A stretch of 64,000 nucleotides of DNA, taken from positions 1 to 64,000 of IMG/VR virus record IMGVR_UViG_3300037461_000428; one strand, 5' to 3'. This document shows positions 5,671 through 47,466 of the stretch, piece after piece. The notes under the pieces were generated by a model, which was not told where the DNA came from, searched no databases, and worked only from the letters and a program-made list of their open reading frames with translations. The position numbers and the translations under genes were made by a program. How positions within the stretch are numbered: position 1 is the stretch's first letter; each line of letters starts with the position of its first letter. Source of the stretch: a virus.

Positions 5671-5724
5671 CAACCAACACGCAAGTCACGCCATAGAAGC
5701 GGCGTGAACTTGCGGACACGTTGT
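5671..5724 (+). repeat. compact attC-like hairpin (E-element)
   Basis: CAACCAAC-ACGC-AAGTCACGCC loop GGCGTGAACTT-GCG-GACAC-GTTGT. Confidence 0.75.
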
Positions 5725-5772
5725 AGTCAATTCCGGTTTTGAAAACCTTTTATTATAGGAGCGCGCAAGAAA

Positions 5773-6045
5773 ATGAAATTATTAAACGATATCAACATTG
5801 TTGTGTCTAACAATTTTATTGAACTTATGGCATTAAAAGCTGAGTCGGATGGTATGCTTTCTGAAAATTATCAACGGATGGCATTATCACAAAGTATGGC
5901 GTATGCAGAAAAAGATTTTCTTTACGTAGCGGATAGAATGCGCGCTCTGAAATATGATGAAGCAAAACCGGAACAGCCTACAACAACGCAAGGCCAAAAC
6001 GCCCAAAGCGGCGCATCGGCCTTGCGTAAACGTTGTAAGAAATAA
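5773..6045 (+). CDS. small cassette protein
   Basis: 90-aa ORF, ATG after TATAGGAGCGCGCAAGAAA. Translation runs through the whole hairpin 5980-6036. Confidence 0.6.
   Translation: MKLLNDINIVVSNNFIELMALKAESDGMLSENYQRMALSQSMAYAEKDFLYVADRMRALKYDEAKPEQPTTTQGQNAQSGASALRKRCKK
5980..6036 (+). repeat. compact attC-like hairpin (E-element)
   Basis: ACAAC-AACGCAAGGCC loop GGCCTTGCGT-AAAC-GTTGT. Confidence 0.75.
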
Positions 6046-16747: not shown

Positions 16748-17527
16748 ATGAGAAATATAAAAATATCAGGACTATCAGTTGATCAAACTTACGAGATAAT
16801 TCCAGATAGAACTTTGCTTTTGGGGTACGTCGGAAGTATTTCTCATGGAACTCAGATAAAAAAAGATAATCCAGACTGCATTGATGATATCGATATACTT
16901 GGGATTGCGCTTGGACCAGAAAATGTCTATTATGGCTTAGGTAAGTTTGAACAAAAAGAAGTTAAGAAAGACGAATGGGACAGTGTAGTATATGAGATAA
17001 AAAAAGCCTTTAGACTCTTATTAGGACAAAATCCTAATGTAATGGCTTTACTCTGGTTGCAGGAAAAGGACTATATACATATCTCTCCTACAGGGAGAAT
17101 GATCTTGGATAATCGTAACTTGTTCGTTAGTAAGCAGGCCTATCATTCATTCACTGGATACGCTCACGGCCAAGTTCATAGAGCTTTACATTTCGGAGAT
17201 ATGAAACAAGCCTATATGGGGGCTAAGAGATATGAGCTTGTACAAAAATATGGTTATGACACAAAAAACATGAGCCACTGTATCCGTCTTATGAGGATGT
17301 GCATCGAATACCTAGGTGATGGGGTACTAAGAGTCTTCAGAGAAGATGCTTGCGAACTTAAGGATATTAAATCTGGTAAGTGGAGTCTTGAAAAAGTTCA
17401 AAAGGAAACAGATAGATTATTCGTATTAGCACAAGAGGCGTTTGTAAGATCTACGCTTCCTAATCAACCAGACAAACAAAAAGCAGAAGAGTTGTTAATC
17501 TCGATTCTCAAAAAGGAGTTATCATGA
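16748..17527 (+). CDS. Pol-beta-superfamily nucleotidyltransferase (RlaP-like)
   Basis: GYVGSISHGTQ........DDIDILGI fits the GS..hG...D.D..G pattern of the nucleotidyltransferase family found next to RNA-repair ligases. Confidence 0.55.
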   Translation: MRNIKISGLSVDQTYEIIPDRTLLLGYVGSISHGTQIKKDNPDCIDDIDILGIALGPENVYYGLGKFEQKEVKKDEWDSVVYEIKKAFRLLLGQNPNVMALLWLQEKDYIHISPTGRMILDNRNLFVSKQAYHSFTGYAHGQVHRALHFGDMKQAYMGAKRYELVQKYGYDTKNMSHCIRLMRMCIEYLGDGVLRVFREDACELKDIKSGKWSLEKVQKETDRLFVLAQEAFVRSTLPNQPDKQKAEELLISILKKELS

Positions 17528-18153: not shown

Positions 18154-18804
18154 ATGGTGATAATGCGTAAGATTCAATGTGTTGGGGACATACATGGTGA
18201 CTTTTATCGTCTAAAAGAAATTATTAAAGAGCATAAAGGAACCACTATTGTATTAGGTGACGTTGGCATAGGATTTATTCATAAATATCATAACCCTACT
18301 TTTATATTTGATCCTACCCAGCCTTTAATGTTAGAAAAGATAACTAACTTTCAATGTAATAGAGAACAGATGCTGTTCCTAAGGGGTAACCATGACAACG
18401 TAGAGATGTGCAGGGCGCACCATAACTATCTAGGAGAATATGGAGTATACAGAGGTATATTTTATGTAAGTGGAGCATTTAGTGTTGATAGGGCTTTTCG
18501 CACTGAAGGAATAGATTGGTGGTCAGAAGAAGAACTATCAATGGAACAGTGCTATAAAGCACTAGAAATGTATAAGACTACTAAGCCAAAAATAGTAATA
18601 TCTCATGACTGCCCTACTAATATTTTATCTTTAATATATAGTCAAATTATACCAACACGAACTGGTCAATTATTGCAGGCTATGTTCGAAGAGCATCAAC
18701 CAGAAAAATGGTATTTTGCTCATCATCATAAAGGATGGCAAGGTGAACTGAAAGGAACTACTTTTAGATGTTTAGACTGTTACGAAATAGCATTGGTTTC
18801 TTAA
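18154..18804 (+). CDS. calcineurin-like metallophosphoesterase
   Basis: Contains GDIHGD, LGDVGIG and RGNHDN. ATG 18163 is an alternative start. Confidence 0.75.
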   Translation: MVIMRKIQCVGDIHGDFYRLKEIIKEHKGTTIVLGDVGIGFIHKYHNPTFIFDPTQPLMLEKITNFQCNREQMLFLRGNHDNVEMCRAHHNYLGEYGVYRGIFYVSGAFSVDRAFRTEGIDWWSEEELSMEQCYKALEMYKTTKPKIVISHDCPTNILSLIYSQIIPTRTGQLLQAMFEEHQPEKWYFAHHHKGWQGELKGTTFRCLDCYEIALVS

Positions 18805-24635: not shown

Positions 24636-24710
24636 GGTATCTTATCTCAATTGGTTGAGGAAATTGTTTTAGAGACAATTTAGTGTAGGTTCGAATCCTA
24701 TCTGTAGAGG
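24636..24710 (+). pseudogene. tRNA-derived fragment (Leu-UAG-like anticodon arm, T-arm, no acceptor pairing)
   Basis: D-arm TCTC-AATTGGTT-GAGG, ATTGT-TTTAGAG-ACAAT and GTAGG-TTCGAAT-CCTAT are present. The 5' and 3' ends cannot pair. A related D-arm string lies at 23903-23922. Confidence 0.3.
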
Positions 24711-24958
24711 CACTTTTCAATACTCTTTTTATGTGGTGCGATGTGCTAATATAGTTAGGTGTAATAAATGTAAAGCTGAATTTCCGCTAATAAGTATGTG
24801 TTGACACAGCACACGTTTAGTGGCACGTTTTATGTAATACGGGGGAGTGCAAATAGTTATCGACATCGCGATTTAGTTCGGTAGCTTCAACGAGTAATGT
24901 CGTTGCTCTCCCGCGTATAGCATACAATGTCGCCATTTAAGTGTACATATTTTTCATT

Positions 24959-25043
24959 GGTCGGTTGATGGAATTGGGATACATTCGAAACTTAAAATTT
25001 CGCGGGTCTTGTACCCATGGGAGTTCAAGTCTCCCACCGACCA
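24959..25043 (+). tRNA. tRNA-Leu(UAA)
   Basis: Acceptor GGTCGGT/ACCGACC. Anticodon stem CGAAA/TTTCG with loop CTTAAAA. Long variable arm GGGT-cttgt-ACCC. T-arm GGGAG-TTCAAGT-CTCCC. Confidence 0.9.
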
Positions 25044-25083
25044 TTTAATACTTTAGGAGCACAATAATAATAAAGGAGTTGAT

Positions 25084-31289: not shown

Positions 31290-31520
31290 ATGGGAACTAT
31301 AAAGTTTGATGGAAAAACTACAACGTTCTTTTATGATAATGATACCGGAATGGTATTAATCCAAGGAGGATTTGAACCAGAAATACAAGTAGATGTTCAA
31401 GATTTAATCTCTTTTATTTCTGAAGTTATTGTTAGACCAAAACTAATAGAAGTTATTAAAAACGCTGAACCAATAGATTTGTTACTTGGACAGTTTAATC
31501 CTTTACCATTAATAGAATAA
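31290..31520 (+). CDS. hypothetical protein
   Basis: 76-aa ORF, ATG after AAGGAGAAAAA. Confidence 0.65.
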   Translation: MGTIKFDGKTTTFFYDNDTGMVLIQGGFEPEIQVDVQDLISFISEVIVRPKLIEVIKNAEPIDLLLGQFNPLPLIE

Positions 31521-31521
31521 T

Positions 31522-31878
31522 ATGAAAATTTTAATATTAGAAGACAGCGGCGAAAGAATTTTTGAATTCAAGAAAAGATTAGGTGCTCACGATGTAACTT
31601 TTACAATGGATACTAAAGAATGTATACATTTATTAGCTACTCAAGATTGGGACTATATTTGTCTCGATCATGATATGGGGACTACTTTTGATAAACCAGG
31701 AGAAGGTACTGGATATGAAGTAGCCAAATGGATATCTGAAAATCCTGAACGTAAACCAAGACATATATTATTACACACAATGAATAATGTCGGGGCGTCA
31801 GCTATGATGTTAGTTCTAGGTAGAGTAGGAATAAGAGCAAGTTATATACCTTGTCTATGGACGAAGATAGAAGTTTAA
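31522..31878 (+). CDS. stand-alone receiver (CheY-fold)-like protein
   Basis: MKILILEDSGERI... and ...YICLDHDMG fit a REC-fold acidic pocket. It resembles the receiver-like domains reported next to RNA-repair genes, which is an inference only. Confidence 0.5.
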   Translation: MKILILEDSGERIFEFKKRLGAHDVTFTMDTKECIHLLATQDWDYICLDHDMGTTFDKPGEGTGYEVAKWISENPERKPRHILLHTMNNVGASAMMLVLGRVGIRASYIPCLWTKIEV

Positions 31879-31883
31879 TACAC

Positions 31884-31960
31884 GGTGACGTTAGCTCAGT
31901 TGAAAGAGCGTTGGGATGTGGCCCCAAAGGTCAAGAGTTTGAATCTCTTACGTCACACCA
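31884..31960 (+). tRNA. tRNA-His(GUG) with encoded G-1 and CCA
   Basis: G-1, then acceptor GTGACGT/ACGTCAC. D stem GCTC/GAGC. Anticodon stem TTGGG/CCCAA with loop ATGTGGC. T-arm AAGAG-TTTGAAT-CTCTT. ACCA end. Confidence 0.85.
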
Positions 31961-31976
31961 TTTTAAGGAGAGAATT

Positions 31977-33119
31977 TTGTCAGAAAGAAAATTAGCTCAT
32001 ATTGAATTAATAGAAAAACTGGAACCAATTCCAAATAGTGACTTTCTTGAAAAGGCTACTATACTTGGTTGGGAATGTGTAGTAAAAAAAGATCAGTTTA
32101 AAGTCGGAGAACGAGTTTGTTATATAGAAACCGATAGTATTGTTCCTACTATACCATTCTTTTTCTTTATGGAACCAAGACGTTACCGCGTGAAAATCAT
32201 ACGGTTACGTAAGCAAATTTCACAAGGCCTCGCCATTTCCTTTAGTGACATAGATAAAATATGTAGTGAATTATATAACAATACAATGGGTATTGTTACC
32301 TCTTCCCTAAATATTGGAGAAGATATATCAAAAACGTTACATATTATTAAACATGATCCTCAAGCTAAAGAGGAATTTCTAATAGAAGATAGTAAAAAAG
32401 CTAATCCTATCCATAAGTATTTATTAAAATACAAATGGTATAGAGCTATTCAGCCAAAGAAACAGGGACGATGGCCGAAGTGGATACAAAAAACAGACGA
32501 AGAAAGAATACAAAATATTCCATCTATTCTTATTCATCATGCTGATACCAAAGTTTATTGGTCAGAAAAATTAGATGGAAAAAGTATATCTATCTCATAT
32601 AAGAAGTTAAAAGTATTTGGTATATTTTCAAATTGGATATTTACTGTGTGCTCTAGAAACATCTGGTTGAAGCGGCCTAGCACACAAGACTATTGGAGAA
32701 TAGTTCGACAATTAGATCTTCAAAATAAATTAAAGAACTATAATAGAGAACTAGTTCTTCAAGGAGAACTTTGTGGACCGAGAATACAAAAGAATAAATA
32801 TAATCTTAAAGATATAGATTTATTTATCTTTACTGTTTATGATATAAAACTTGATACCTATTTAGGAATCGAAGGAATTAGAAAAGTTTGTGAAGACCTT
32901 AATTTAAAAATGGTACCAATACTTGGTACAGGAATATTAAAAGAAAACTTTCCCGATGTTCCAAAATGTGTAGAAAAATCAAAAGGAACTTCAATTCTAG
33001 CTAGTGTAAAAAGAGAAGGAATTGTGGTGCGCCAATATAATAACTCAAAAGGAACTAAAGGGCTTTCTTTTAAAGTAATTTCGCCAGAGTTCTTACTTGG
33101 ACTAAGCGAAGATGAATAA
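31977..33119 (+). CDS. RNA ligase (KxDG nucleotidyltransferase, DRB0094/Rnl-like)
   Basis: WSEKLDGKS is adenylation motif I. The N-terminal AHIELIEKLEPIPNSDFLEKATILGWECVVKK resembles the RNA-ligase N-domain. A TTG start after AAGGAGAGAA is assumed because the track ORF 31851 runs through tRNA-His. Confidence 0.65.
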   Translation: MSERKLAHIELIEKLEPIPNSDFLEKATILGWECVVKKDQFKVGERVCYIETDSIVPTIPFFFFMEPRRYRVKIIRLRKQISQGLAISFSDIDKICSELYNNTMGIVTSSLNIGEDISKTLHIIKHDPQAKEEFLIEDSKKANPIHKYLLKYKWYRAIQPKKQGRWPKWIQKTDEERIQNIPSILIHHADTKVYWSEKLDGKSISISYKKLKVFGIFSNWIFTVCSRNIWLKRPSTQDYWRIVRQLDLQNKLKNYNRELVLQGELCGPRIQKNKYNLKDIDLFIFTVYDIKLDTYLGIEGIRKVCEDLNLKMVPILGTGILKENFPDVPKCVEKSKGTSILASVKREGIVVRQYNNSKGTKGLSFKVISPEFLLGLSEDE

Positions 33120-33190
33120 ATTAGTATATATTTATCTTTATTTTTATATGATAGAATTGATTATTTAGTTAATAATATTTTATAGAATTA

Positions 33191-33311
33191 CCTAGGTGTA
33201 AGGGTTCAATTCCCTAAATTGAAAGTCGCGACTTTTCAATTACATTTGATCCGATTCTATAAACGATAGGATCTAAAATTCATCTGGCAGCGTAAGCTTG
33301 ATGGCACCTAG
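33191..33311 (+). ncRNA. tRNA-like structured RNA upstream of the Y-RNA-like array
   Basis: Closing stem CCTAGGTG/CACCTAG. T-arm-like GGG-TTCAATT-CCC. Hairpins TTGAAAGTCGCGACTTTTCAA and GATCC..GGATC. Confidence 0.35.
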
Positions 33312-33323
33312 ATTTAATTTTTT

Positions 33324-33436
33324 GAGTGGGTGTAGATAACAGTTACTTCACTTGAAAATCTGCCTTAGGCAGACCCGTGTAAGTCAAACTAGCACACGTT
33401 ATAGTCGTGGCATACCTGTTGTCGTTTTTATCACTC
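33324..33436 (+). ncRNA. Y-RNA-like (Yrl) RNA, copy 1
   Basis: 5' GAGTG-GGTGTAG-ATAACA-GTTACTTC. 3' CTGTTGTC-GTTTTTATC-ACTC. The 5' and 3' ends pair. The motif pair is repeated in the copies below. Confidence 0.6.
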
Positions 33437-33548
33437 AAATTTTATTATTGATCTGAAGGAAAATTGGGGTCGCTTTTCCTGTTCATCTCCAATTTAACCG
33501 CCTTCAGAACTAAATGATCCTTAATAATATAAGGATCATGTTTTAAAT

Positions 33549-33653
33549 GGTCGGGTGTAGTAAACGGTTACTTCTACATTTTATGTAATGCAAGTGAAAT
33601 TCAAGGCCTGTTGCACGTATAGTCGTGCGGATCCGTTTACGTTTTTATCGACC
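33549..33653 (+). ncRNA. Y-RNA-like RNA, copy 2
   Basis: GGTCG-GGTGTAG-TAAACG-GTTACTTC ... CCGTTTAC-GTTTTTATC-GACC. The spacer covaries (TAAACGG/CCGTTTA). Confidence 0.6.
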
Positions 33654-33674
33654 TTTATTTTTATTGATATAATT

Positions 33675-33761
33675 AAATTCAAGGGTGTAGTAGAGAGTTA
33701 CTTCTAATCGCATATAGATAGGCCGTAAGGCCATTTCTCTCTACGTTTTAATCTTGAATTT
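33675..33761 (+). ncRNA. Y-RNA-like RNA, copy 3 (short)
   Basis: AAATTCAAG-GGTGTAG-TAGAGA-GTTACTTC ... TCTCTCTAC-GTTTTAATC-TTGAATTT. Confidence 0.55.
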
Positions 33762-33779
33762 AATTAAATTAATAAACAA

Positions 33780-33942
33780 GATCGGGTGTAGATTACAGTT
33801 ACTTCTATCGAACTTACGATCGGTGGTTCGAATCCATCTCTATAAGGAAACTTGTAGATGGCCTAGTGGTAAGGCAAAAGTATGTGAAATTCAGAGCTGA
33901 CACGTTATAGCCGTGACATTCCTGTAGTCGTTTTTATCGATC
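33780..33942 (+). ncRNA. Y-RNA-like RNA, copy 4, with a tRNA-like module (YrlA-type)
   Basis: GATCG-GGTGTAG-ATTACA-GTTACTTC ... CCTGTAGTC-GTTTTTATC-GATC. The interior has GGTGG-TTCGAAT-CCATC and GCCTAGTGGTAAGGC. Confidence 0.6.
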
Positions 33943-33957
33943 TTTAAATAATCCATA

Positions 33958-34075
33958 AGTGGTGTAGACCTACGAAAGTATAGCTGACAAGGCTCTAGAC
34001 ATGGTCGAGGGGTTACCTACCGAAACTAGTAAGGTATGTGGCGGTAATGAAGGGGATTATTTATTATTTTTGCTT
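33958..34075 (+). ncRNA. possible divergent Y-RNA-like copy
   Basis: It has GGTGTAGACCTAC and GGTTACCTAC, but the two are separated by about 45 nt and the GTTTTTATC partner is missing. Confidence 0.25.
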
Positions 34076-34179
34076 TAGTTGACGACGAAACAAGATCCAG
34101 CCAGACACCAGAGCCTCTTAACAATGCTACAAATATTGGTCAACTGGTGTTGAATGTGGACTTACTAAAGCATTATTAA

Positions 34180-34306
34180 TAACGGGTGTAGACAAGAGTT
34201 ACTTCACTGATAATGAAAAGATATGGGTTCGAGTCCCATACCCTTCGTAAGAAGGGACTAGCTCAATGGCTAGAGCGTTAAAATACTCTTATCGTTTTTA
34301 TCGTTA
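34180..34306 (+). ncRNA. Y-RNA-like RNA, copy 5, with a tRNA-like module (YrlA-type)
   Basis: TAACG-GGTGTAG-ACAAGA-GTTACTTC ... ACTCTTATC-GTTTTTATC-GTTA. The interior has ATGGG-TTCGAGT-CCCAT and GCTCAATGGCTAGAGC. Confidence 0.6.
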
Positions 34307-34337
34307 TTATTTTCTCTCACACAAATAGGAGGGTGTT

Positions 34338-35888
34338 ATGAAACAAAATACAAAAGCAACTGGAAATGGAAAAACTGTTCTTACTATTGGTAAAACTTTA
34401 AATAAGGCCGGCGAAGAAGCCTTTGAGCTTAAGGATCGCGAGAAGCTTGTAACAGGCATTTTAACATGCCTAGTCAATGAGCCTACGTATTATGGAGATA
34501 CTACTCCAGATGTCATTAAAGTAGCCCGTAAGCTTATTCAGACAGATCCTGAGTTTGTCGCAAAGGCCGCGTGCTATGCAAGAAACGTTTTTCATATGAG
34601 AAGCATATCTCATGTACTTGCTGCAGAAGTAGCAAAAGGAGCTAAGGGAAGCAATGTTGTCCGTAAGATGACTCGTAAAATAATTGAGCGTGCCGATGAT
34701 ATTACCAATATCCTTTCCTACCACTTTAAGACTTGGGGAAAGAGAAAAAAGGATCCTGCTCTTACTGTAACCCAGTCAGACAATCCTGTATCAAGAGCTC
34801 TCCGTAGAGGAATAGCTGATGTATTCCCAAGATTCGACGAGTATTCTCTTGCTAAGTATAAAGGCGACGACAACGACGTCAAGCTTCGTGACGCCCTATT
34901 ACTTTCCAGACCTAAGCCTACTAATGAAGCACAAACCCAGCTTTGGAAGAAATTAATCGAAGGTAAGCTGGCTACGCCAGAGACCAGAGAAACTATTCTT
35001 TCCGAGAAAGGTCAGTCTAAGGAAACTTGGGAGAAGATCATTGATGGTAAAGCAGGATATATGATGCTTCTAAGAAACCTTAAGAATATTCTGGAAAATA
35101 AGGTTAGTCAGTCTCATCTTGATAAGGTATGTACTATTATTAGTGACACTGATCAGGTAAAGAAGTCAAAACAGTTCCCATTTAGATTCTTCTCTGCTTA
35201 TCGTGAAGTTGAAAATTTGGGATCTTTGAGATCTCAGCAAGTTTTAGATGCTCTTGAAAATGCGCTTAATACGTCATTTGAAAATCTTCCAAAGTTGGCC
35301 GGAACCACTGCAATTATTGTGGATCAATCTGGTAGTATGGATAGTCCTCTTAGCGAAAAAAGTAAAATCAATCTAAGGGACGTTGGCAATCTTCTTGCCG
35401 CAGCGGCATTAAAGTTCTGCGATAGAGCAGTTACTATTCCATTTGGATATACTGCAAAAGTTATATCTTTATCTTCTCGTAATAATATCTTTGCGAATAT
35501 GACAAAGATGGAGAATTCAGGAGTTGGTCATTCGACTTATCTTATTTCAGCATTTGAAGAAATTGATAAGCTGGATGAGAAAATTGATCGCATCCTTATT
35601 TTCTCTGATATGCAGGCATATGGAGAAGTAGCGACCATATTTGGATATTTCAGACGTCCATCGACTCCGTTATATAATAGCTGTCAGGCTTGGTTTGAAG
35701 CCTATAAACAAAAAGTGCCAGCGTTATGGTTACATTCATTTGATTTAGCTGGCCATAGTACTACTAAAGTAGCCGGAAAAGGTGTAAATCTTATCTCTGG
35801 TTGGTCAGAAAAAGTATTTGATTATGTTTCTCAGGTAGAAGAAGGCAGAGCCGGTCTAATCAAAGCAATTGAAGAATACGTAATTTAA
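34338..35888 (+). CDS. rsr: Ro60/TROVE-domain protein with C-terminal vWA domain (Rsr-like)
   Basis: 516 aa, ATG after ATAGGAGGGTGTT. The N-terminal part resembles TROVE (LVNEPTYYGD...FVAKAACYARN..HMR). IIVDQSGSM is the MIDAS motif. It sits immediately after the Y-RNA-like array. Confidence 0.75.
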   Translation: MKQNTKATGNGKTVLTIGKTLNKAGEEAFELKDREKLVTGILTCLVNEPTYYGDTTPDVIKVARKLIQTDPEFVAKAACYARNVFHMRSISHVLAAEVAKGAKGSNVVRKMTRKIIERADDITNILSYHFKTWGKRKKDPALTVTQSDNPVSRALRRGIADVFPRFDEYSLAKYKGDDNDVKLRDALLLSRPKPTNEAQTQLWKKLIEGKLATPETRETILSEKGQSKETWEKIIDGKAGYMMLLRNLKNILENKVSQSHLDKVCTIISDTDQVKKSKQFPFRFFSAYREVENLGSLRSQQVLDALENALNTSFENLPKLAGTTAIIVDQSGSMDSPLSEKSKINLRDVGNLLAAAALKFCDRAVTIPFGYTAKVISLSSRNNIFANMTKMENSGVGHSTYLISAFEEIDKLDEKIDRILIFSDMQAYGEVATIFGYFRRPSTPLYNSCQAWFEAYKQKVPALWLHSFDLAGHSTTKVAGKGVNLISGWSEKVFDYVSQVEEGRAGLIKAIEEYVI

Positions 35889-35892
35889 ATTT

Positions 35893-36039
35893 AAACAGTT
35901 GGTGGCGAAAAGTTGTTATATAATTAGAATAATAAAAATGGATAAAGTAAATGAAAATGTAGTAATGGGTGATTTCTTCAGATGACGCACTACAGCAACT
36001 TCTAAGAAAAATCCATCAAAGCCAACTGTTTATTTTTTT
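35893..36039 (+). ncRNA. candidate structured RNA downstream of the Ro60 gene
   Basis: A 10-bp closing stem AAACAGTTGG/CCAACTGTTT is followed by ATTTTTTT. No credible ORF. Confidence 0.3.
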
Positions 36040-36050
36040 AAGGAATTAAA

Positions 36051-36470
36051 ATGATAGAGATTAGTATTAAGGATAAGAATAGACTAATTATTTTAAACGT
36101 AGTAGGAAAGACTCCTATACGTGGAAGAATATCTTCTAATAATTACTTTCATACTCCTCTAGAACTTCTTCTGTCTGCTCTTGGTTTGTGTATAGGTGGG
36201 AAAATAAACGACTACTGTCGATTAAACGAATTAAATCCGGCTATTTTTGAACAAATTGCCGTTGGTCTTGAAGAGAATAAATTTATTGTATTTATTAAGC
36301 GACCAGAAGATTTTAATCCAGAACACATAGAAAGAATAAGTACCGAAATTTCTTATTGTACCATTGCTCAGGAATTAAAAAAAGAAGTAACAGTAAGATG
36401 GGAACTAAATAATACGCCTACTAAAGAATTACTAAAACCAGTAGAACAACCTTGTTGTGGAGCAAAATAA
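36051..36470 (+). CDS. OsmC/Ohr-like protein
   Basis: PLELLLSALGLCIGGKI resembles the OsmC-family P.ELL..AL..C motif. Confidence 0.5.
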   Translation: MIEISIKDKNRLIILNVVGKTPIRGRISSNNYFHTPLELLLSALGLCIGGKINDYCRLNELNPAIFEQIAVGLEENKFIVFIKRPEDFNPEHIERISTEISYCTIAQELKKEVTVRWELNNTPTKELLKPVEQPCCGAK

Positions 36471-36801
36471 AATAGGATTAAATTTAAGAACAGGTTTAAC
36501 ACCAGATAGTAAAAAAGAACATCATCAAGAAATGCAAAAACTCTCCAATAAAGAAGATAAGACTGGAAAATCTCTTGATCTTAATAATAAAACTGTTTGT
36601 ATAACAGGAACAACTATTGGATATACCCGCAAAGAAGCACAATCTCAACTTATAAAGAAGTTTCCTAAAATTACATTTTCCCATATAATAACTTCTTATG
36701 TAGACTACCTAATAATTGGACACGGAATAGGCCAAACAAAAATTAAAGCCGCACAAAAACATGCAATACAAATTATAGAATCTTCACTATTTTTCTCCTA
36801 A
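36457..36801 (+). CDS. BRCT-domain protein; start uncertain
   Basis: KTVCITGTTIGYTRKEAQSQLIKKF...VDYLIIGHGIGQTKIKAAQKHAIQII parallels the BRCT domain of NAD-dependent ligases. The track start is a GTG. Confidence 0.5.
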   Translation: MEQNKIGLNLRTGLTPDSKKEHHQEMQKLSNKEDKTGKSLDLNNKTVCITGTTIGYTRKEAQSQLIKKFPKITFSHIITSYVDYLIIGHGIGQTKIKAAQKHAIQIIESSLFFS

Positions 36802-44646: not shown

Positions 44647-47466
44647 ATGAGCATTACAAAGGCCGAAGAATCAAGGCTTGCCACCTTTAAACCAGTATTT
44701 GATAGAATCGAATGCGATGCTGGAATTATTTTTGTTGATACTCCAGAAGAAACAAGATTAATTAGAGAAATTTATCGCACATATAAAAGCGACTCTGTCC
44801 AATTCTGGTCAATCGGGCAAGGTTTACATGAAGTAGAACAGAAAAAGCTTTCTGTAAATAAGTTCTATCCTCATAAATTTCCAGCAGTATCTGCTAGAAT
44901 GGGGAAGAATGGCAATTTTGATACAAGAGTCTCTCCATTAAATCTATTCAGTCTTATTGAAGAAGATTGTCGTGACAAGGCTAAGCCTAACGAAGTGCCA
45001 GATAAAAAGCATATTTATGTTTTACGAGATCTTGATAAATTTCTTAAAGATCCTGTATGTCTGCGCAGACTTAAAGATCTAGTATATCTTTGTGCTACTA
45101 CTTGTTCATGTATTATAGTTACCGGTTACGGAATAACAGTTCCTATTGAATTGGAGAAAGATGCTCAGTTTGTTAAACTTAAGTATCCAACTAGAGAAGA
45201 AATAATTGAAGGTATTCTTAAGAATACTAGGGAGCAAATCACAGAGCATAATAAAGTTGTTGCTCCAAAAGATAGAATTGATAACGTGTGGGATGACGTA
45301 GAAGTAGCAAGAGCATGTGGCGGACTAACTGAGGATCAGATCCTCAATACGCTACAATATTCAATGACTGTTCATAATAAGATTGATATCACAAGTATCA
45401 TTGAAGAGAAAAGATCCATCATTAATAAGTCAGATATTTTAGAGTACTGGACATGTACTCAGGGACTTGATGAAGTTGGCGGATTCAAGGCTATTAAAGA
45501 ATGGATCGCTATTCAAAAAACAGTTATGGATCATATCGACAATGCTGCAAAGTTTAAGACCACACCTCCAAAAGCAATCATGCTTCTCGGGGTTCAAGGA
45601 AGTGGTAAAGCACAACCATTATATACTCCCGTTTTAATGGCTGATAAATCATGGAAAAAAATGGAAGATATTGAAGTTGGAGATAAGATATTAACTCCTA
45701 AAGGAAAGGCTTCTACAGTAAAACAAATCTTTAACCATTATGATAAAGATAATTTTATTATAACTTTTAAAGATGGTCGTTCTACAGAATGTTGTAATGA
45801 ACATCTCTGGAAAGTATATAATAAAAACTGGAAAACCCAAAAAGAAGCCAAAGACGGATGGAAAATAATTACTCTAAATAAACTTATTAAATATTCAAAG
45901 TATACATCTGATACAAGAAGATTTTATATTCCATTACCGTCTTTTGAATTTGATACTCAAGAAATAGATCTTCCTTTTGATCCTTACATTATGGGTGTTC
46001 TATTAGGAGATGGTTGTTTTAGAGGTAATGGTGTAATTTTTACTTCTAACGATGAAGAAATTGTTAAAAATGTTGAAAAAAGATTGCTTCCTGGATATAA
46101 AATAACTAAAATAGAATGTGAAGAAAGAACACCAGACTATAGAATATCTCTTATTAATAATGATGGTCATACAAGAAATTTTTACAAAGTTAAATTAGAA
46201 GAACTTGGATATTGGGGTAAATTATCTTGGGAAAAGAATATACCAGAGATTTATCTTAATGGTTCACTAAACCAGAGATTAGAACTATTACGAGGTCTTC
46301 TAGATACAGATGGATATGCTGGAAATAGTATTAGTTATTCTACTACTAGTCCCAACTTAATGCATTCCATGATAAAACTTATTAGATCTGTAGGAGGACA
46401 AGCATTTTCTACAACTAAAATTTCAAAAGTTTCAAAAGAAAGTACACGAGAATTTTTATCTTTTAATATAAACATAAGATATCATAATCCAAAAGATTTA
46501 TTTAATCTAACAAGAAAAAAAGATAAATTATCTGATAATTACCAATATAATGATTTAAAGTTAGAAATAACAGAAATAAGACAAGTTAAGTCAGAAGACA
46601 TGAGATGTTTATTACTAGATGACGAAGAACACCTTTATATAACAAACGACTATATAGTTACTCATAACACTTTTTGTGCTCAAGCACTTGCCCAACATCT
46701 TAAGGTAAGTCTACTTAAGTTTGAAATCGGAAAAGTATTTGCAGGATTGGTTGGAGAATCAGAAAAGAGAATGAGACAGGCTCTAACACTCGCTGACGCC
46801 GTGGGTGGAATCATTGTAATCGATGAATTGGATAAGGGACTATCAGGAGCAGGTTCTTCTGATAAGACTGATGGTGGAACTACAAACAGGGTAATTGGAT
46901 CTCTATTAACTTGGTTAAATGAAGATCATCCTGGATTGTTATTGGTTGCAACAGCAAACGACATCACATCTCTTCGTAATAATCATCCTGAGCTTTTACG
47001 TAAAGGAAGATTCGACGAAATCTGGTTCTCTGACGTTCCAAACGCAGAAGAAAGAGAAGAGATTTATGGAATTCACATTAAGAAGTCTGGAAGAGATCCA
47101 AAGAAGTTTGATCTCAAAAAGCTTGCTGAATATGAGTACATTGATAATGACCACCAGAAGTTTACAGTAACTGGCGCCGAGATCAAAAGTTCCATCGAAG
47201 ATGCAAAAAGAAATAAGTTTGCAAAAGGTGGTGGAAAAGAAATCGAAATTGGCGGGAAAGACGATATTACTACTGAGGACATTTTAGAGTGTCTTAAGAA
47301 GATTAAGCCAATTACGAAAATTGGAAAAGAAAAGATTAATGCAATGCGTAAATGGTCAGAAGACAATGCAACAAATGTTTCAGCAGGAATTCCTAAAGCT
47401 GAAAAGAAAAAAGGAACAAAATCAAAAGTAAATCTTCGTGAAGCTAATGAAGAAATCGAACTTTAA
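44647..47466 (+). CDS. Ycf46-like AAA+ ATPase interrupted by an intein
   Basis: The Walker A motif is split, GVQGSGK | intein | TFCAQALA. Walker B is IVIDELDK. ATAN...ELLRKGRFDE is the second region of homology. Confidence 0.8.
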   Translation: MSITKAEESRLATFKPVFDRIECDAGIIFVDTPEETRLIREIYRTYKSDSVQFWSIGQGLHEVEQKKLSVNKFYPHKFPAVSARMGKNGNFDTRVSPLNLFSLIEEDCRDKAKPNEVPDKKHIYVLRDLDKFLKDPVCLRRLKDLVYLCATTCSCIIVTGYGITVPIELEKDAQFVKLKYPTREEIIEGILKNTREQITEHNKVVAPKDRIDNVWDDVEVARACGGLTEDQILNTLQYSMTVHNKIDITSIIEEKRSIINKSDILEYWTCTQGLDEVGGFKAIKEWIAIQKTVMDHIDNAAKFKTTPPKAIMLLGVQGSGKAQPLYTPVLMADKSWKKMEDIEVGDKILTPKGKASTVKQIFNHYDKDNFIITFKDGRSTECCNEHLWKVYNKNWKTQKEAKDGWKIITLNKLIKYSKYTSDTRRFYIPLPSFEFDTQEIDLPFDPYIMGVLLGDGCFRGNGVIFTSNDEEIVKNVEKRLLPGYKITKIECEERTPDYRISLINNDGHTRNFYKVKLEELGYWGKLSWEKNIPEIYLNGSLNQRLELLRGLLDTDGYAGNSISYSTTSPNLMHSMIKLIRSVGGQAFSTTKISKVSKESTREFLSFNINIRYHNPKDLFNLTRKKDKLSDNYQYNDLKLEITEIRQVKSEDMRCLLLDDEEHLYITNDYIVTHNTFCAQALAQHLKVSLLKFEIGKVFAGLVGESEKRMRQALTLADAVGGIIVIDELDKGLSGAGSSDKTDGGTTNRVIGSLLTWLNEDHPGLLLVATANDITSLRNNHPELLRKGRFDEIWFSDVPNAEEREEIYGIHIKKSGRDPKKFDLKKLAEYEYIDNDHQKFTVTGAEIKSSIEDAKRNKFAKGGGKEIEIGGKDDITTEDILECLKKIKPITKIGKEKINAMRKWSEDNATNVSAGIPKAEKKKGTKSKVNLREANEEIEL
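45610..46668 (+). mobile_element. intein (353 aa) with a LAGLIDADG homing-endonuclease domain, Ala1 type
   Basis: It starts AQPLYTPVLMADK (Ala1, T6, V8, D12) and ends IVTHN followed by Thr+1. LAGLIDADG motifs GVLLGDGC and LLRGLLDTDGY. Removing it restores GSGKT. Confidence 0.75.

What the first reader, a model, noticed from the sequence alone, without database searches (positions are those of the whole stretch)
31522..35888. Phage-borne Ro60/Y-RNA module linked to an RNA ligase, a receiver-like protein and tRNA-His
**Gene order.** Receiver-fold protein, tRNA-His, KxDG RNA ligase, about 1.2 kb of Y-RNA-like genes, then a TROVE+vWA (Rsr-like) protein.

**Background.** Bacterial Rsr/Y-RNA loci and their association with RNA-repair enzymes are established.

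**Other nearby components:**
- a Pol-beta-type nucleotidyltransferase (16748)
- two metallophosphoesterases
- a second vWA protein (26393)
- many tRNA mimics

**Interpretation.** Together these look like an RNA damage-response or anti-anticodon-nuclease toolkit.
Basis: partly seen in the sequence, partly recalled or inferred. Interest (0 to 1): 0.65.

Follow-up and report, generated by a model that had tools for sequence, protein, structure and literature searches.

The report
Phage Ro60 with five Y RNAs
A large phage carries a Ro60-type RNA-binding ring protein, five small "Y RNA" genes just upstream of it, and an RNA ligase with a helper enzyme; this is a known kind of RNA-surveillance and repair kit, but with a Y RNA type that the standard RNA library misses.

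Summary
The genes, all on the + strand, are:
- a cREC receiver-like protein (31522-31878)
- tRNA-His (31885-31960)
- an Rnl5-type RNA ligase (31977-33119)
- a 1.2-kb spacer
- a Ro60/Rsr protein with TROVE and vWA domains (34338-35888)

The spacer holds exactly five Y-RNA-like genes, which together cover about 610 nt. They share a covarying two-helix base with an internal loop (5' GGGUGUAG, 3' CGUUUUU[A/C]) followed by UUACUUC, and they carry four kinds of variable module. Two units (Y4, Y5) have YrlA-type tRNA-like domains. None reaches the Rfam YrlA threshold, and ARAGORN miscalls Y5 as tRNA-Ile.

Related metagenomic phage contigs (up to 144-230 kb) keep the same gene order and carry 3-9 such units. 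Clostridia and Bacteroidota Rsr loci carry 1-4.

Phage Ro60/Y RNAs and the cREC-ligase link are already published, so this is a variant of a known kind, not a new system.

The "anti-anticodon-nuclease toolkit" reading is plausible but only partly supported:
- no polynucleotide kinase or RtcB was found
- the ligase and tRNA-His are dispensable in relatives
- no extra tRNA mimics occur outside the array

Most likely function: the Y RNAs act as interchangeable adaptors that couple the Ro60 ring to partner enzymes for RNA surveillance and repair during infection.

The parts
31522..31878 (+). cREC (cyclic-phosphate-processing receiver-like) protein, 118 aa
   Evidence: Pfam PF20274, E 5e-17, 62.8 bits against a cutoff of 27. 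Acidic residues sit at receiver-type positions (LILEDSG, ICLDHDMG). Orthologues occupy the same position in L001, L003, L004 and L005, with a weaker match in L054.
31885..31960 (+). tRNA-His(GTG), with G-1 encoded at 31884, A73 discriminator and encoded CCA
   Evidence: ARAGORN; Rfam tRNA 62 bits; sequence read directly. It lies next to cREC also in L003, L005 and L054, but not in L001, L004 or L053.
31977..33119 (+). Rnl5-type ATP-dependent RNA ligase, 380 aa, TTG start (N-terminal OB domain plus nucleotidyltransferase domain, motif I KLDG)
   Evidence: Pfam PHA02142 OB domain 3e-22 and RNA_ligase 2e-23. PDB 5COT Naegleria RNA ligase E 5e-31 over both domains; DNA ligase only E 0.64. Ribosome-binding site and start codon read.
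33322..33438 (+). Y RNA-like gene Y1 (117 nt): shared base plus a hairpin, a GUGUAAGUCAAACU stretch and a CACG-UUAUAGU-CGUG hairpin
   Evidence: 5'-arm profile E 1.1e-6; fold z -3.1; pairing beats 300 of 300 shuffles; 91% identical orthologue at L051 895-1012; class alignment.
33547..33655 (+). Y RNA-like gene Y2 (109 nt), same class as Y1 (GUGAAAUUCAAGGC plus UAUAGU-loop hairpin)
   Evidence: 5'-arm profile E 1.6e-5; fold z -2.4; orthologue at L051 1562-1671.
33677..33759 (+). Y RNA-like gene Y3 (83 nt), minimal class: shared base plus two small hairpins
   Evidence: 5'-arm profile E 3e-5; fold z -4.2 with 0 of 200 shuffles as stable; covariance model R1 32 bits, E 5e-7; orthologue at L051 2430-2515.
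33778..33944 (+). Y RNA-like gene Y4 (167 nt). The shared base carries a tRNA-like T arm, acceptor-like hairpin and D arm, all closed by their own helix. A GUGAAAUUCAGAGC stretch and a UUAUAGC-loop hairpin follow.
   Evidence: 5'-arm profile E 2.8e-6; fold; six-phage RNAalifold gives 20 of 38 pairs with compensatory changes, including the closing helix.
34178..34308 (+). Y RNA-like gene Y5 (131 nt), YrlA-like: shared base, a V hairpin of 5 bp with the 7-nt loop CUGAUAA, a T arm, an acceptor-like hairpin and a D arm
   Evidence: Rfam YrlA 25.6 bits, E 0.032, below the threshold of 69; fold z -3.8; 10-sequence RNAalifold gives 18 of 26 pairs compensatory. Its 5' half is miscalled tRNA-Ile by ARAGORN and scores 31 bits against Rfam tRNA.
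34338..35888 (+). Ro60/Rsr homologue, 516 aa (TROVE HEAT-repeat ring plus vWA domain with MIDAS motif DQSGS)
   Evidence: Pfam TROVE 2e-33; phiLo Ro60 9KOP E 4e-25; AlphaFold pLDDT 83.5; Foldseek matches Ro60/Rsr structures at TM 0.54-0.70 and the C-terminal part matches vWA domains; D329-S331-S333 invariant in 35 homologues.
36051..36470 (+). OsmC-like small protein, conserved immediately downstream of Rsr in the clade (membership in the module is uncertain)
   Evidence: Pfam OsmC E 1e-4, below cutoff; orthologues directly after Rsr in L001, L003, L004, L005, L052 and L054.
36457..36801 (+). BRCT-like small protein, conserved after the OsmC-like gene (membership uncertain)
   Evidence: Weak BRCT Pfam marks on orthologues; tblastn orthologues in L001, L003, L004 and L052.
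16748..17527 (+). RlaP (RNA-ligase-associated Pol-beta) nucleotidyltransferase, 14 kb upstream; a candidate distant partner
   Evidence: Pfam PF10127 E 1.2e-12; PHROG nucleotidyltransferase 2e-46.
18154..18804 (+). Calcineurin-like metallophosphoesterase, a candidate 3'-end-healing enzyme (inference only)
   Evidence: Pfam Metallophos E 9e-11.

Best explanation
This is the Ro60 (Rsr)/Y RNA ribonucleoprotein module of a roughly 213-kb phage. It lies downstream of a cREC protein, tRNA-His and an Rnl5 RNA ligase.

**Shown here**
- The 516-aa protein has the Ro60 ring plus vWA fold.
- Five small RNA genes lie directly upstream on the same strand.
- Each RNA pairs its 5' and 3' ends into two covarying helices separated by a conserved asymmetric internal loop (5' GGGUGUAG, 3' CGUUUUU[A/C]). 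This loop sits in the same place and register as the Ro60-binding GNCGAA(N)G loop of YrlA.
- Above this common base, each RNA carries a different module. Y4 and Y5 have a tRNA-like domain. Y1, Y2 and Y4 have a conserved GUGAAAUUCAGAGC stretch with a UAUAG-loop hairpin. Y3 is minimal.

**Inferred from Deinococcus, Salmonella and phage phiLo work**
- The common base docks each Y RNA on the Ro60 ring.
- The variable modules recruit or block different partners, such as host PNPase or tRNA-handling enzymes.
- One ring protein would thus be redirected by five interchangeable adaptors to survey, trim or protect structured RNAs during infection.

**Inferred from family properties and published gene-neighbourhood statistics**
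- cREC would open 2',3'-cyclic phosphate ends.
- Rnl5 would seal 3'-OH/5'-phosphate nicks in structured RNA.
- RlaP, 14 kb away, would restore lost 3' nucleotides.
- Together with the Rsr/Y RNPs these would form an RNA damage-response set.
For: - **Protein identities:**
- **Five units and only five in 64 kb, all on the Rsr strand:**
- **Common fold in every unit:** MFE z-scores from -2.4 to -4.2.
- **Covariation in 30 units from 8 phage contigs:** 88.8% of cells paired against 61.9% in shuffles. Fifteen of 17 pairs show double changes. The covariation score is 0.71 against 0.22 (0 of 500 shuffles reach it) and against 0.08-0.16 for slid registers.
- **Selection bias excluded:** 0-2 of 300 shuffles reach the observed pairing for each unit.
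- **Class-level compensatory pairs:**
- **YrlA-like register:** cmscan aligns Y5 to YrlA end to end, at 25.6 bits. UUAC corresponds to the YUAY element and GGUGUAG resembles GNCGAA(N)G (PMC4201824).
- **Synteny:** cREC, ligase, array, Rsr and the OsmC-like gene keep the same order in related contigs of up to 144-230 kb, with 3-9 units each.
- **Literature:**
  - PMC4201824: Y RNAs near Ro60 in 22 phages.
  - PMC12135203: phiLo Ro60 binds two phage Y-like RNAs and host PNPase.
  - PMC7824862: the cREC-ligase and RlaP-ligase links, and TROVE proteins in jumbo phages.
  - PMC12776372: RlaP adds 1-2 nucleotides to damaged RNA 3' ends.
Against: - No expression, binding or activity data exist for this phage.
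- The 5' motif differs from the defining YrlA motif at two positions, and no unit reaches the Rfam YrlA threshold.
- The 3' partners used in the covariation test were chosen by pairing score. This is partly controlled by the independent GUUUUU motif and by shuffles.
- The ligase is absent from L005 and L054, and cREC from L053. More distant phage Rsr loci with arrays have neither. The ligase and cREC adjacency may therefore reflect shared descent within one phage clade.
- No polynucleotide kinase or RtcB was seen.
- The partners of the variable modules are unknown.
Confidence: 0.6

Rival explanations
1. **Decoy or shield model.** The tRNA-like modules (T, D and acceptor-like arms, plus a V hairpin with anticodon-arm dimensions) mainly act as competitive inhibitors or sponges. 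Their targets would be host tRNA-targeting defence nucleases or other tRNA-binding sensors. Ro60 would serve to stabilise them, rather than being tethered by them to a nuclease.
For: - Y4 and Y5 and their orthologues keep tRNA-like arms with compensatory changes.
- The V hairpin is a 5-bp stem with a 7-nt CUNNUAA-type loop, and its stem covaries.
- tRNA finders read these units as tRNAs with varying anticodons.
- One relative embeds a near-complete tRNA-Lys-like body in a Y base.
- Hughes et al. proposed that the YrlA tRNA-like domain could competitively inhibit an anticodon nuclease (PMC7790460).
- A Ro60-like protein of phage Bas63 was reported to counter a defence system (PMC11482910).
Against: - Three of the five window units (Y1-Y3) have no tRNA-like domain, yet they are conserved in relatives.
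- The loop sequences vary and are AU-rich, so the resemblance to an anticodon loop may be compositional.
- No host or defence system is known for this phage.
Confidence: 0.25
2. **Offensive degradation model.** The Rsr/Y RNPs hijack host PNPase, as in the RYPER complex, to destroy host structured RNAs. Targets could be rRNA, tRNA or CRISPR RNA precursors. The cREC, ligase and tRNA-His neighbours would be unrelated genes that sit nearby only through inherited gene order.
For: - Deinococcus Rsr with Y RNA and PNPase degrades structured RNA. PhiLo Ro60 with its Y-like RNAs assembles with host PNPase in vitro (PMC12135203).
- The ligase, cREC and tRNA-His are each missing in some clade members, while the array and Rsr are always kept.
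Against: - cREC-ligase and ligase-RlaP associations recur across unrelated genomes (PMC7824862).
- Rsr is linked to the RtcB ligase in many bacteria (PMC7790460).
- No PNPase-binding element can be recognised in these RNAs by sequence.
Confidence: 0.3
3. The repeats are not Ro60 ligands at all. They would be decayed tRNA genes, or a repeated DNA element such as protein-binding sites or a mobile repeat, that happens to lie upstream of rsr.
For: - ARAGORN and Rfam tRNA give marginal tRNA calls inside one unit.
- The region lies next to real tRNA genes.
Against: - Both basal helices show compensatory changes across 30 units.
- All 56 profile hits in the phage loci and 77 in bacterial Rsr loci are on the Rsr strand and close to rsr.
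- Three units lack any tRNA-like part.
- The alignment to YrlA is end to end in the correct register.
Confidence: 0.03

Closest known systems
YrlA-type bacterial and phage Y RNAs with Rsr (Chen et al. 2014, PMC4201824; Rfam RF02553)
   Same: - The genes lie less than 1.1 kb upstream of the Ro60 gene, on the same strand.
- The 5' and 3' ends pair into two helices around an asymmetric internal loop, in the same register.
- A YUAY element (here UUAC) follows the inner helix.
- Y4 and Y5 have T arm, acceptor-like hairpin and D arm in the YrlA order.
   Different: - The 5' motif is GGUGUAG rather than GNCGAA(N)G.
- The best Rfam score is 25.6 bits against a threshold of 69.
- There are five genes per locus (3-9 in related phage contigs) of four or more module types, against about 1.3 reported YrlAs per genome on average in the 2014 survey.
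- Three of the five units lack a tRNA-like domain.
Thermus phage phiLo Ro60 with Yrl1/Yrl2 (PMC12135203; PDB 9KOP, 9L5Y)
   Same: - It is the closest solved protein (E 4e-25, full length; TM about 0.66-0.73).
- It is phage-encoded, with Y-like RNA genes directly upstream of the Ro60 gene.
   Different: - About 23% identity.
- PhiLo has two Y-like RNAs with a CGAA-bearing bulge; this phage has five with GUGUAG.
- No RNA ligase or cREC neighbour is described for phiLo.
Salmonella rsr-yrlBA-rtcBA RNA repair operon (PMC7790460)
   Same: Ro60, Y RNAs and an RNA ligase are encoded together, and the theme is a response to damaged tRNA.
   Different: - The ligase here is an ATP-dependent Rnl5 (3'-OH/5'-phosphate sealing), not RtcB (3'-phosphate/5'-OH).
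- cREC takes the place of the RtcA cyclase.
- There is no RtcR regulator.
- The context is a phage, not a chromosome.
Jumbo-phage RNA repair gene sets (Iyer et al. 2021, PMC7824862)
   Same: cREC next to an RNA ligase, an RlaP nucleotidyltransferase, a TROVE protein and many tRNA genes in a phage of about 200 kb.
   Different: That survey names RtcB, Rnl1 and Rnl2 as the phage ligases and mentions only 'a tRNA-like partner' for TROVE. The Rnl5 ligase and the multi-gene Y array are not described there.
Rnl5 ligases (Naegleria gruberi NgrRnl 5COT; Deinococcus DraRnl/DRB0094)
   Same: N-terminal OB domain plus C-terminal nucleotidyltransferase domain. The KxDG lysine motif and the downstream motifs align.
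   Different: About 30% identity, with a roughly 40-residue longer linker between the domains. Activity is untested.

Membership tests
Ro60/Rsr (TROVE + vWA ring protein) | TROVE HEAT-repeat domain forming the ring | tested here: met
   Pfam TROVE E 2e-33. The AlphaFold model matches 1YVP, 2I91, 2NVO, 9KOP and 9NEP over about 500-560 aligned columns at TM 0.63-0.70.
Ro60/Rsr (TROVE + vWA ring protein) | C-terminal vWA domain with MIDAS motif (DxSxS) | tested here: met
   D329-Q-S331-G-S333 is invariant in 35 homologues. Foldseek vWA-domain hits cover the C-terminal part. Pfam DUF7788 is below cutoff.
Ro60/Rsr (TROVE + vWA ring protein) | Binds Y RNA on the outer ring surface and misfolded RNA ends in the cavity | not testable with these tools
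   Needs binding assays or immunoprecipitation.
YrlA Y RNA (Rfam RF02553; Chen et al. 2014) | GNCGAA(N0-1)G motif near the 5' end | tested here: not met
   All five units have GGUGUAG at that position. Relatives have GGUGCAG, GGUGUAA or GGAUGUAG. Two defined positions differ (C to U, A to U).
YrlA Y RNA (Rfam RF02553; Chen et al. 2014) | Score at or above the Rfam gathering threshold (69 bits) | tested here: not met
   The best is Y5 at 25.6 bits. There is no YrlA hit at threshold in the window or in 23 related phage and bacterial loci.
YrlA Y RNA (Rfam RF02553; Chen et al. 2014) | YUAY element after the Ro-binding stem; T arm, acceptor-like stem-loop and D arm in that order | tested here: met
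   UUAC is present in all five units. The T, acceptor-like and D arms are present in Y4 and Y5 only, with compensatory pairs in orthologues. Y1-Y3 lack the tRNA-like domain.
YrlA Y RNA (Rfam RF02553; Chen et al. 2014) | Encoded within 4 kb of the Ro60 gene on the same strand | tested here: met
   The units lie 30-1016 nt upstream of the rsr start, on the + strand.
Y RNA in the broad sense | An 80-170 nt RNA whose 5' and 3' ends form a long stem with a conserved internal loop or bulge, plus a variable module | tested here: met
   Folds. Covariation of both helices in 30 units. Shuffle control.
Rnl5 RNA ligase | N-terminal OB domain plus C-terminal adenylyltransferase domain with a KxDG lysine; closer to RNA ligases than to DNA ligases or capping enzymes | tested here: met
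   Pfam PHA02142 OB domain and RNA_ligase. 5COT E 5e-31 over residues 2-104 and 163-369. KLDG aligns with the NgrRnl KLDG. DNA ligase E 0.64.
Rnl5 RNA ligase | Seals 3'-OH/5'-phosphate nicks when the 3'-OH strand is RNA | not testable with these tools
   Biochemical property of NgrRnl and DraRnl (from my own knowledge of the family); not assayed here.
cREC | Match to the cREC_REC model above cutoff, with receiver-type acidic residues kept | tested here: met
   62.8 bits against a cutoff of 27; the generic Response_reg model scores only 18 bits. The motifs LILEDSG and CLDHDMG are present.
cREC | Operonic association with an RNA ligase | tested here: met
   cREC, tRNA-His and the ligase lie within 100 nt of each other here. 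The same order occurs in L001 and L003 and on the P0003 contig by gene calls only. In L004 only a truncated 183-aa ligase is called. The ligase is absent in L005 and L054.
Rtc-type repair operon (rsr-yrlBA-rtcBA) | RtcB ligase, RtcA cyclase and RtcR regulator next to rsr | tested here: not met
   No RtcB, RtcA or RtcR domains were found in any of the 37 window ORFs scanned with Pfam, including all those of 375 aa or more.
T4-type anticodon-nuclease countermeasure (Pnkp + Rnl) | Polynucleotide 5'-kinase/3'-phosphatase partner for the ligase | tested here: inconclusive
   No Walker-A motif was found in 17 ORFs around 15-22 kb and 31-37 kb. One Metallophos protein at 18154 could supply 3' healing. 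The remaining roughly 150 kb of the phage genome was not available.

The most novel reading that the evidence does not exclude
A clade of phages of about 200 kb has turned the Ro60/Y RNA system into a diversifying adaptor library.
- One ring protein is served by 3-9 Y RNAs that share a docking stem.
- The Y RNAs shuffle, permute and even nest tRNA-like, anticodon-arm-like and other modules.
- This is a pattern expected of an arms race with host tRNA-targeting or RNA-targeting defences.
- Each Y RNA would neutralise or redirect a different host factor.
- The shared GUGAAAUUCAGAGC/UAUAG-hairpin module would be a new effector-binding element.
Probability: 0.25. Interest if true: 0.75.

Novelty: new variant of a known kind. 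Interest (0 to 1): 0.5.

Why it matters
- **The open question.** Ro60 and Y RNAs are conserved from bacteria to humans, and Ro60 is a major lupus and Sjogren autoantigen. What the variable part of a Y RNA does is still largely open.
- **A natural experiment.** A phage clade with one Ro60 and 3-9 Y RNAs offers this. The docking stem is identical, but the modules are distinct and conserved between phages. Each module can be pulled down to find its partner.
- **An annotation gap.** This Y RNA type, also present in Clostridia and Bacteroidota Rsr loci, escapes the Rfam YrlA model, and its tRNA-like units are miscalled as tRNA genes with arbitrary anticodons.
- **A different enzymology.** The pairing with an Rnl5 ligase and cREC, instead of RtcB and RtcA, shows the Ro60-ligase partnership rebuilt with different end chemistry. 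This supports a real functional link between Ro60 RNPs and RNA end-joining.

Tried and rejected
- **INPHARED DNA search.** blastn of 31500-36000 found no match. The clade is not among deposited phages. The best phage TROVE protein hit is 35% identical.
- **IMG/VR protein-pattern scan** for Rsr relatives found none.
- **IMG/VR DNA pattern** GGGTGTAG-N6-9-GTTACTTC gave 45 loci, about the number expected by chance by my rough estimate. tblastn showed only one, the same contig as L004, to be real.
- **My first motif search** used the wrong spacer length and found nothing.
- **Covariance model R1,** built from joined 5' and 3' arms, could not bridge the long variable inserts. Only the 83-nt Y3 scored well.
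I replaced it with nhmmer arm profiles.
- **PADLOC:** no defence-system match for 8 proteins of the region.
- **Thg1.** This tRNA-His guanylyltransferase lies near Rsr in L059. tblastn found no homologue in the window.
- **The idea that the window's tRNA-His lacks G-1 was rejected.** G-1 is encoded at 31884; only the discriminator differs (A73).
- **The weak abiF-motif hit** at 34108-34140 (E 1.1) was treated as chance.
- **'Many tRNA mimics' outside the array** were not found.
- **Two reviews (PMC10870794, PMC6047535) and Burroughs & Aravind 2016** are not held in the library. Their content is cited only through papers that summarise them.

Full report

Yes. All genes in 31522-35888 lie on the + strand.
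- 31522-31878 encodes a 118-aa protein that matches Pfam cREC_REC (E 5e-17, 62.8 bits against a cutoff of 27). It scores only 18 bits against the generic receiver model.
- 31885-31960 is tRNA-His(GTG).
- 31977-33119 starts at TTG, 6 nt after an AAGGAG ribosome-binding site. It has an N-terminal PHA02142 OB domain and a C-terminal RNA_ligase domain.
- This protein aligns over both domains with the Naegleria gruberi Rnl5 ligase (5COT, E 5e-31), including the KLDG adenylylation motif. T4 Rnl2 scores E 0.04 and an ATP-dependent DNA ligase E 0.64.
- 34338-35888 encodes a 516-aa TROVE protein (E 2e-33). It aligns end to end with the crystal structure of the Thermus phage phiLo Ro60 (9KOP, E 4e-25).
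- An AlphaFold model built on 35 homologues (pLDDT 83.5, pTM 0.79) matches every solved Ro60/Rsr structure over its full length, at TM 0.63-0.70 for all but human Ro60 9NEN (0.54). Its C-terminal part matches vWA domains. The MIDAS triad D329/S331/S333 is invariant.

**2. What is in the 1.2-kb spacer (33120-34337)?**

There are five units with a common base:

| Unit | Coordinates |
|---|---|
| Y1 | 33322-33438 |
| Y2 | 33547-33655 |
| Y3 | 33677-33759 |
| Y4 | 33778-33944 |
| Y5 | 34178-34308 |

The common base reads, in order:
- an outer helix of 6-9 bp formed by the two ends
- an asymmetric internal loop (5' side GGGUGUAG, of which the first two or three G close the outer helix; 3' side CGUUUUU followed by A or C)
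- an inner helix of 8 bp
- the invariant UUACUUC

Evidence that these are real:
- Each unit folds to this base on its own, with z-scores from -2.4 to -4.2.
- A profile of the 5' arm finds exactly these five sites in the 64-kb window, all on the + strand (E 1e-6 to 3e-5).
- The 3' motif CGTTTTWATC occurs 6 times against 0.54 expected by chance, and 5 of the 6 are here.
- For each unit, the best pairing of its 5' arm with downstream sequence is reached by 0-2 of 300 shuffles.

Above the base the units differ:
- **Y5** has a V hairpin, a T arm (AUGGGUUCGAGUCCCAU), a closed acceptor-like hairpin and a D arm (UAGCUCAAUGGCUAGAGC). This is the YrlA arrangement.
- **Y4** has T arm, acceptor-like hairpin and D arm closed by their own 6-7 bp helix. 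A GUGAAAUUCAGAGC stretch and a hairpin with a UUAUAGC loop follow.
- **Y1 and Y2** have a small hairpin plus the same stretch-and-hairpin module.
- **Y3** is a minimal 83-nt form.

The five units cover about 610 of the 1218 nt. The rest holds window-specific structured stretches that have no counterpart in relatives.

**3. Comparative evidence**

Relatives and gene order:
- The Rsr protein sits on a 213,094-bp contig. It has relatives of 50-82% identity on metagenomic contigs of up to 144-230 kb.
- Eight such loci were read: L001, L003, L004, L005 and L051-L054.
- They share the gene order tRNAs, cREC, (tRNA-His), Rnl5, array, Rsr, OsmC-like, BRCT-like and onward to a ClpB-like ATPase.
- They carry 3 to 9 units by the 5'-arm profile and motif census. 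The closest relative, L051 (82% identity), has 8.
- The window's Y1-Y5 each have an orthologue in L051 at 75-91% identity. The order of the Y3 and Y4 equivalents is swapped there.

Covariation in a sequence-only alignment of the two arms of 30 units:

| Measure | Observed | Column shuffles | Slid registers |
|---|---|---|---|
| Cells forming standard pairs | 88.8% | 61.9% | 40-55% |
| Pairs with changes on both sides | 15 of 17 | 11.9 | 5-10 |
| Covariation score | 0.71 | 0.22 (0 of 500 reach it) | 0.08-0.16 |

Class-wise RNAalifold gives 20 of 38, 18 of 26 and 11 of 21 pairs with compensatory changes. This includes the closing helix of the Y4-type cloverleaf.

More distant loci:
- More distant phage-like Rsr loci (42-43% identity; L058, L059) also have arrays of at least 4-6 units with variant motifs. 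One array follows a TTGACA-17-TGTATAAT promoter.
- In 80 Clostridia and Bacteroidota genome loci encoding Rsr relatives, the 5'-arm profile hits 41 loci, 1-4 times each. Every hit is on the Rsr strand and within about 3 kb of the gene.
- None of the 15 such loci tested, and none of the phage loci, gives an Rfam YrlA hit at threshold.

**4. Which links are conserved?**

- The array next to Rsr is kept in every locus whose DNA was read.
- The ligase is absent from L005 and L054, and none is called on the P0007 contig (gene calls only). It is truncated in L004.
- cREC is absent from L053.
- tRNA-His lies beside cREC in the window, L003, L005 and L054. It is not there in L001, L004 or L053, and it is one of several scattered tRNA genes.
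- L058 and L059 have neither cREC nor Rnl5.

Within this data set the cREC, ligase and Rsr adjacency could therefore be inherited gene order. The functional link rests mainly on published, independent neighbourhood statistics:
- cREC with RNA ligases, and RlaP with RNA ligases (PMC7824862)
- Rsr and Y RNAs with RtcB in bacteria (PMC7790460)

Elsewhere in the window:
- the RlaP nucleotidyltransferase at 16748 and a Metallophos protein at 18154 are confirmed
- no polynucleotide kinase motif and no RtcB were found
- no further Y-like or tRNA-like elements appear beyond ordinary tRNAs and one partial hit

**5. How it most likely works**

Shown here: a Ro60-fold protein, and five adjacent same-strand RNAs with a covarying common base and distinct conserved modules.

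Inferred from Xenopus, Deinococcus, Salmonella and phiLo work (PMC4201824, PMC12135203):
- The base, and chiefly its 5' strand, docks on the Ro60 ring.
- The module engages a second factor.
- One ring protein can thus be coupled to several partners, with PNPase as the documented example.

The tRNA-like modules should be recognised by tRNA-handling enzymes. [quoted passage not shown]

Inferred from family properties:
- cREC resolves 2',3'-cyclic phosphates. This is a prediction from PMC7824862.
- Rnl5 seals 3'-OH/5'-phosphate nicks in structured RNA.
- RlaP restores 1-2 lost 3' nucleotides (PMC12776372).

I rate the identity at about 0.9 and the adaptor-plus-repair mechanism at about 0.5.

Rivals:
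- a decoy role for the tRNA-like parts (suggested for YrlA in PMC7790460)
- a purely degradative, PNPase-hijacking role with unrelated neighbours (suggested for phiLo)
- a non-RNA repeat, which the covariation and strand bias make very unlikely

**6. Comparison with what is known**

It works like a YrlA/Rsr module and matches its architecture. The register of helices and loops is the same, the YUAY element is present, and Y4 and Y5 have the T, acceptor-like and D arms.

It fails two defining tests of YrlA membership. The GNCGAA(N)G motif is replaced by GGUGUAG, and the best Rfam score is 25.6 bits against a threshold of 69. I therefore file the RNAs as a divergent Y RNA subfamily rather than as YrlA proper.

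What is already published:
- Phage Ro60/Y RNA loci: 22 phages in 2014, then phiLo, CcrColossus and others.
- In my own check, CcrColossus shows three sub-threshold YrlA hits upstream of its TROVE gene.
- 98 deposited phage records encode a TROVE homologue.

What is new:
- the motif variant and its invisibility to Rfam
- the size and modular diversity of the arrays
- the recurring GUGAAAUUCAGAGC/UAUAG-hairpin module
- the use of Rnl5 and cREC instead of RtcB and RtcA

**7. Verdict**

This is a new variant of a known kind. I give it moderate interest (0.5), for two reasons. The system itself is established, but the expanded and modular Y RNA arrays give a tractable handle on the old question of what Y RNA modules do.

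Noticed in passing
window 34180-34248 (also L051 2685-2753, L052 2694-2762, L003 4753-4824): ARAGORN calls a tRNA-Ile(GAT) inside Y5, and Rfam tRNA scores it 31 bits. Y-like units in relatives are called Ile, Asn or Cys. These are parts of Y RNAs, not tRNA genes, and would be mis-annotated by standard pipelines.
   Followed up: yes
window 33176-33266: A 91-nt stretch closed by a 10-bp stem (UUUAUAGAAU/AUUCUAUAAA) contains a T-arm-like hairpin (AGGGUUCAAUUCCCU) and a second hairpin (z -3.1). It has no Y-type internal loop and no counterpart in relatives. It may be a sixth, aberrant small RNA.
   Followed up: partly
window 33452-33539: A strong hairpin (33452-33508) is followed by a terminator-like hairpin and U run (33514-33539), between Y1 and Y2 (z -4.7). 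This suggests Y1 and Y2-Y5 may be separate transcription units. It is not conserved in relatives.
   Followed up: partly
window 33945-34184: Two window-specific stretches lie between Y4 and Y5. 33945-34064 contains GGTGTAG, a UAUAGC and a GGTTACC but folds poorly (z -1), and looks like a decayed Y unit. 34058-34184 is a long stem-loop (z -4.5) with a chance-level match to the abiF motif (E 1.1).
   Followed up: partly
window 36051-36801: An OsmC-like protein with two cysteines (LGLC, SYCT) follows rsr directly in the six relatives whose downstream DNA was read. A BRCT-like protein follows it in most of them. They may belong to the module.
   Followed up: partly
window 44647-47466: A 939-aa AAA ATPase carries Hint and LAGLIDADG domains, so it contains an intein with a homing endonuclease. 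The ClpB-like orthologue in L005 also shows a LAGLIDADG mark.
   Followed up: no
L054 5378-5517 and 5617-5904: One Y unit encloses a near-complete tRNA-Lys(CUU)-like body with D arm, anticodon arm and T arm in native order (Rfam tRNA 57.8 bits). Another Y unit has a complete second Y unit (5699-5818) nested in its acceptor-like loop. The arrays evolve by module permutation and nested insertion.
   Followed up: partly
window 34199-34222 and class II units in L001, L003, L005, L051, L052, L054 and L059: The hairpin that starts in the conserved UUACUUC has anticodon-arm dimensions: a stem of about 5 bp and a 7-nt loop of the CUNNUAA type. The stem covaries (A/U, UU/AA, GA/UC, UC/GA, GC/GC, UUU/AAA). 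Whether it mimics an anticodon arm or a variable arm is unresolved.
   Followed up: partly
L109 3502-3557: A type III hammerhead ribozyme (56.9 bits, above threshold) lies just upstream of Y-like 5' arms (3585, 3784) and an Rsr gene in a Clostridiales contig. It may process the Y RNA transcript.
   Followed up: no
L001 5033-5425, L051 1858-2229, L052 2147-2545: A NUDIX hydrolase gene sits inside the Y array in three relatives but is absent from the window's array. Small ORFs also interrupt the arrays of L003 and L054.
   Followed up: no
window 31884-31960: The phage tRNA-His encodes G-1 and CCA but has an A73 discriminator. The orthologous tRNA-His genes in L003, L005 and L054 have the bacterial G-1:C73 pair.
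   Followed up: partly
L059 3845-3875 and 8369-9226: In a more distant phage-like Rsr locus, a near-consensus sigma-70 promoter (TTGACA-17-TGTATAAT) precedes a six-unit Y array. A Thg1 (tRNA-His guanylyltransferase) gene lies 2 kb downstream of rsr.
   Followed up: no
L005 / L060 (CAYVGZ010000001.1, 196,613 bp): This contig is deposited as a 'Candidatus Bathyarchaeia' MAG contig. It shares the cREC, array, Rsr, OsmC-like and ClpB-like gene order of this phage clade, so it is probably a mis-binned phage genome.
   Followed up: no
window 24643-24701 and 24958-25044: A partial tRNA-like element lacks the acceptor stem (Rfam tRNA 30 bits, model positions 8-63). An ARAGORN-only tRNA-Leu(TAA) nearby is not supported by Rfam at E 0.5 or below.
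   Followed up: no
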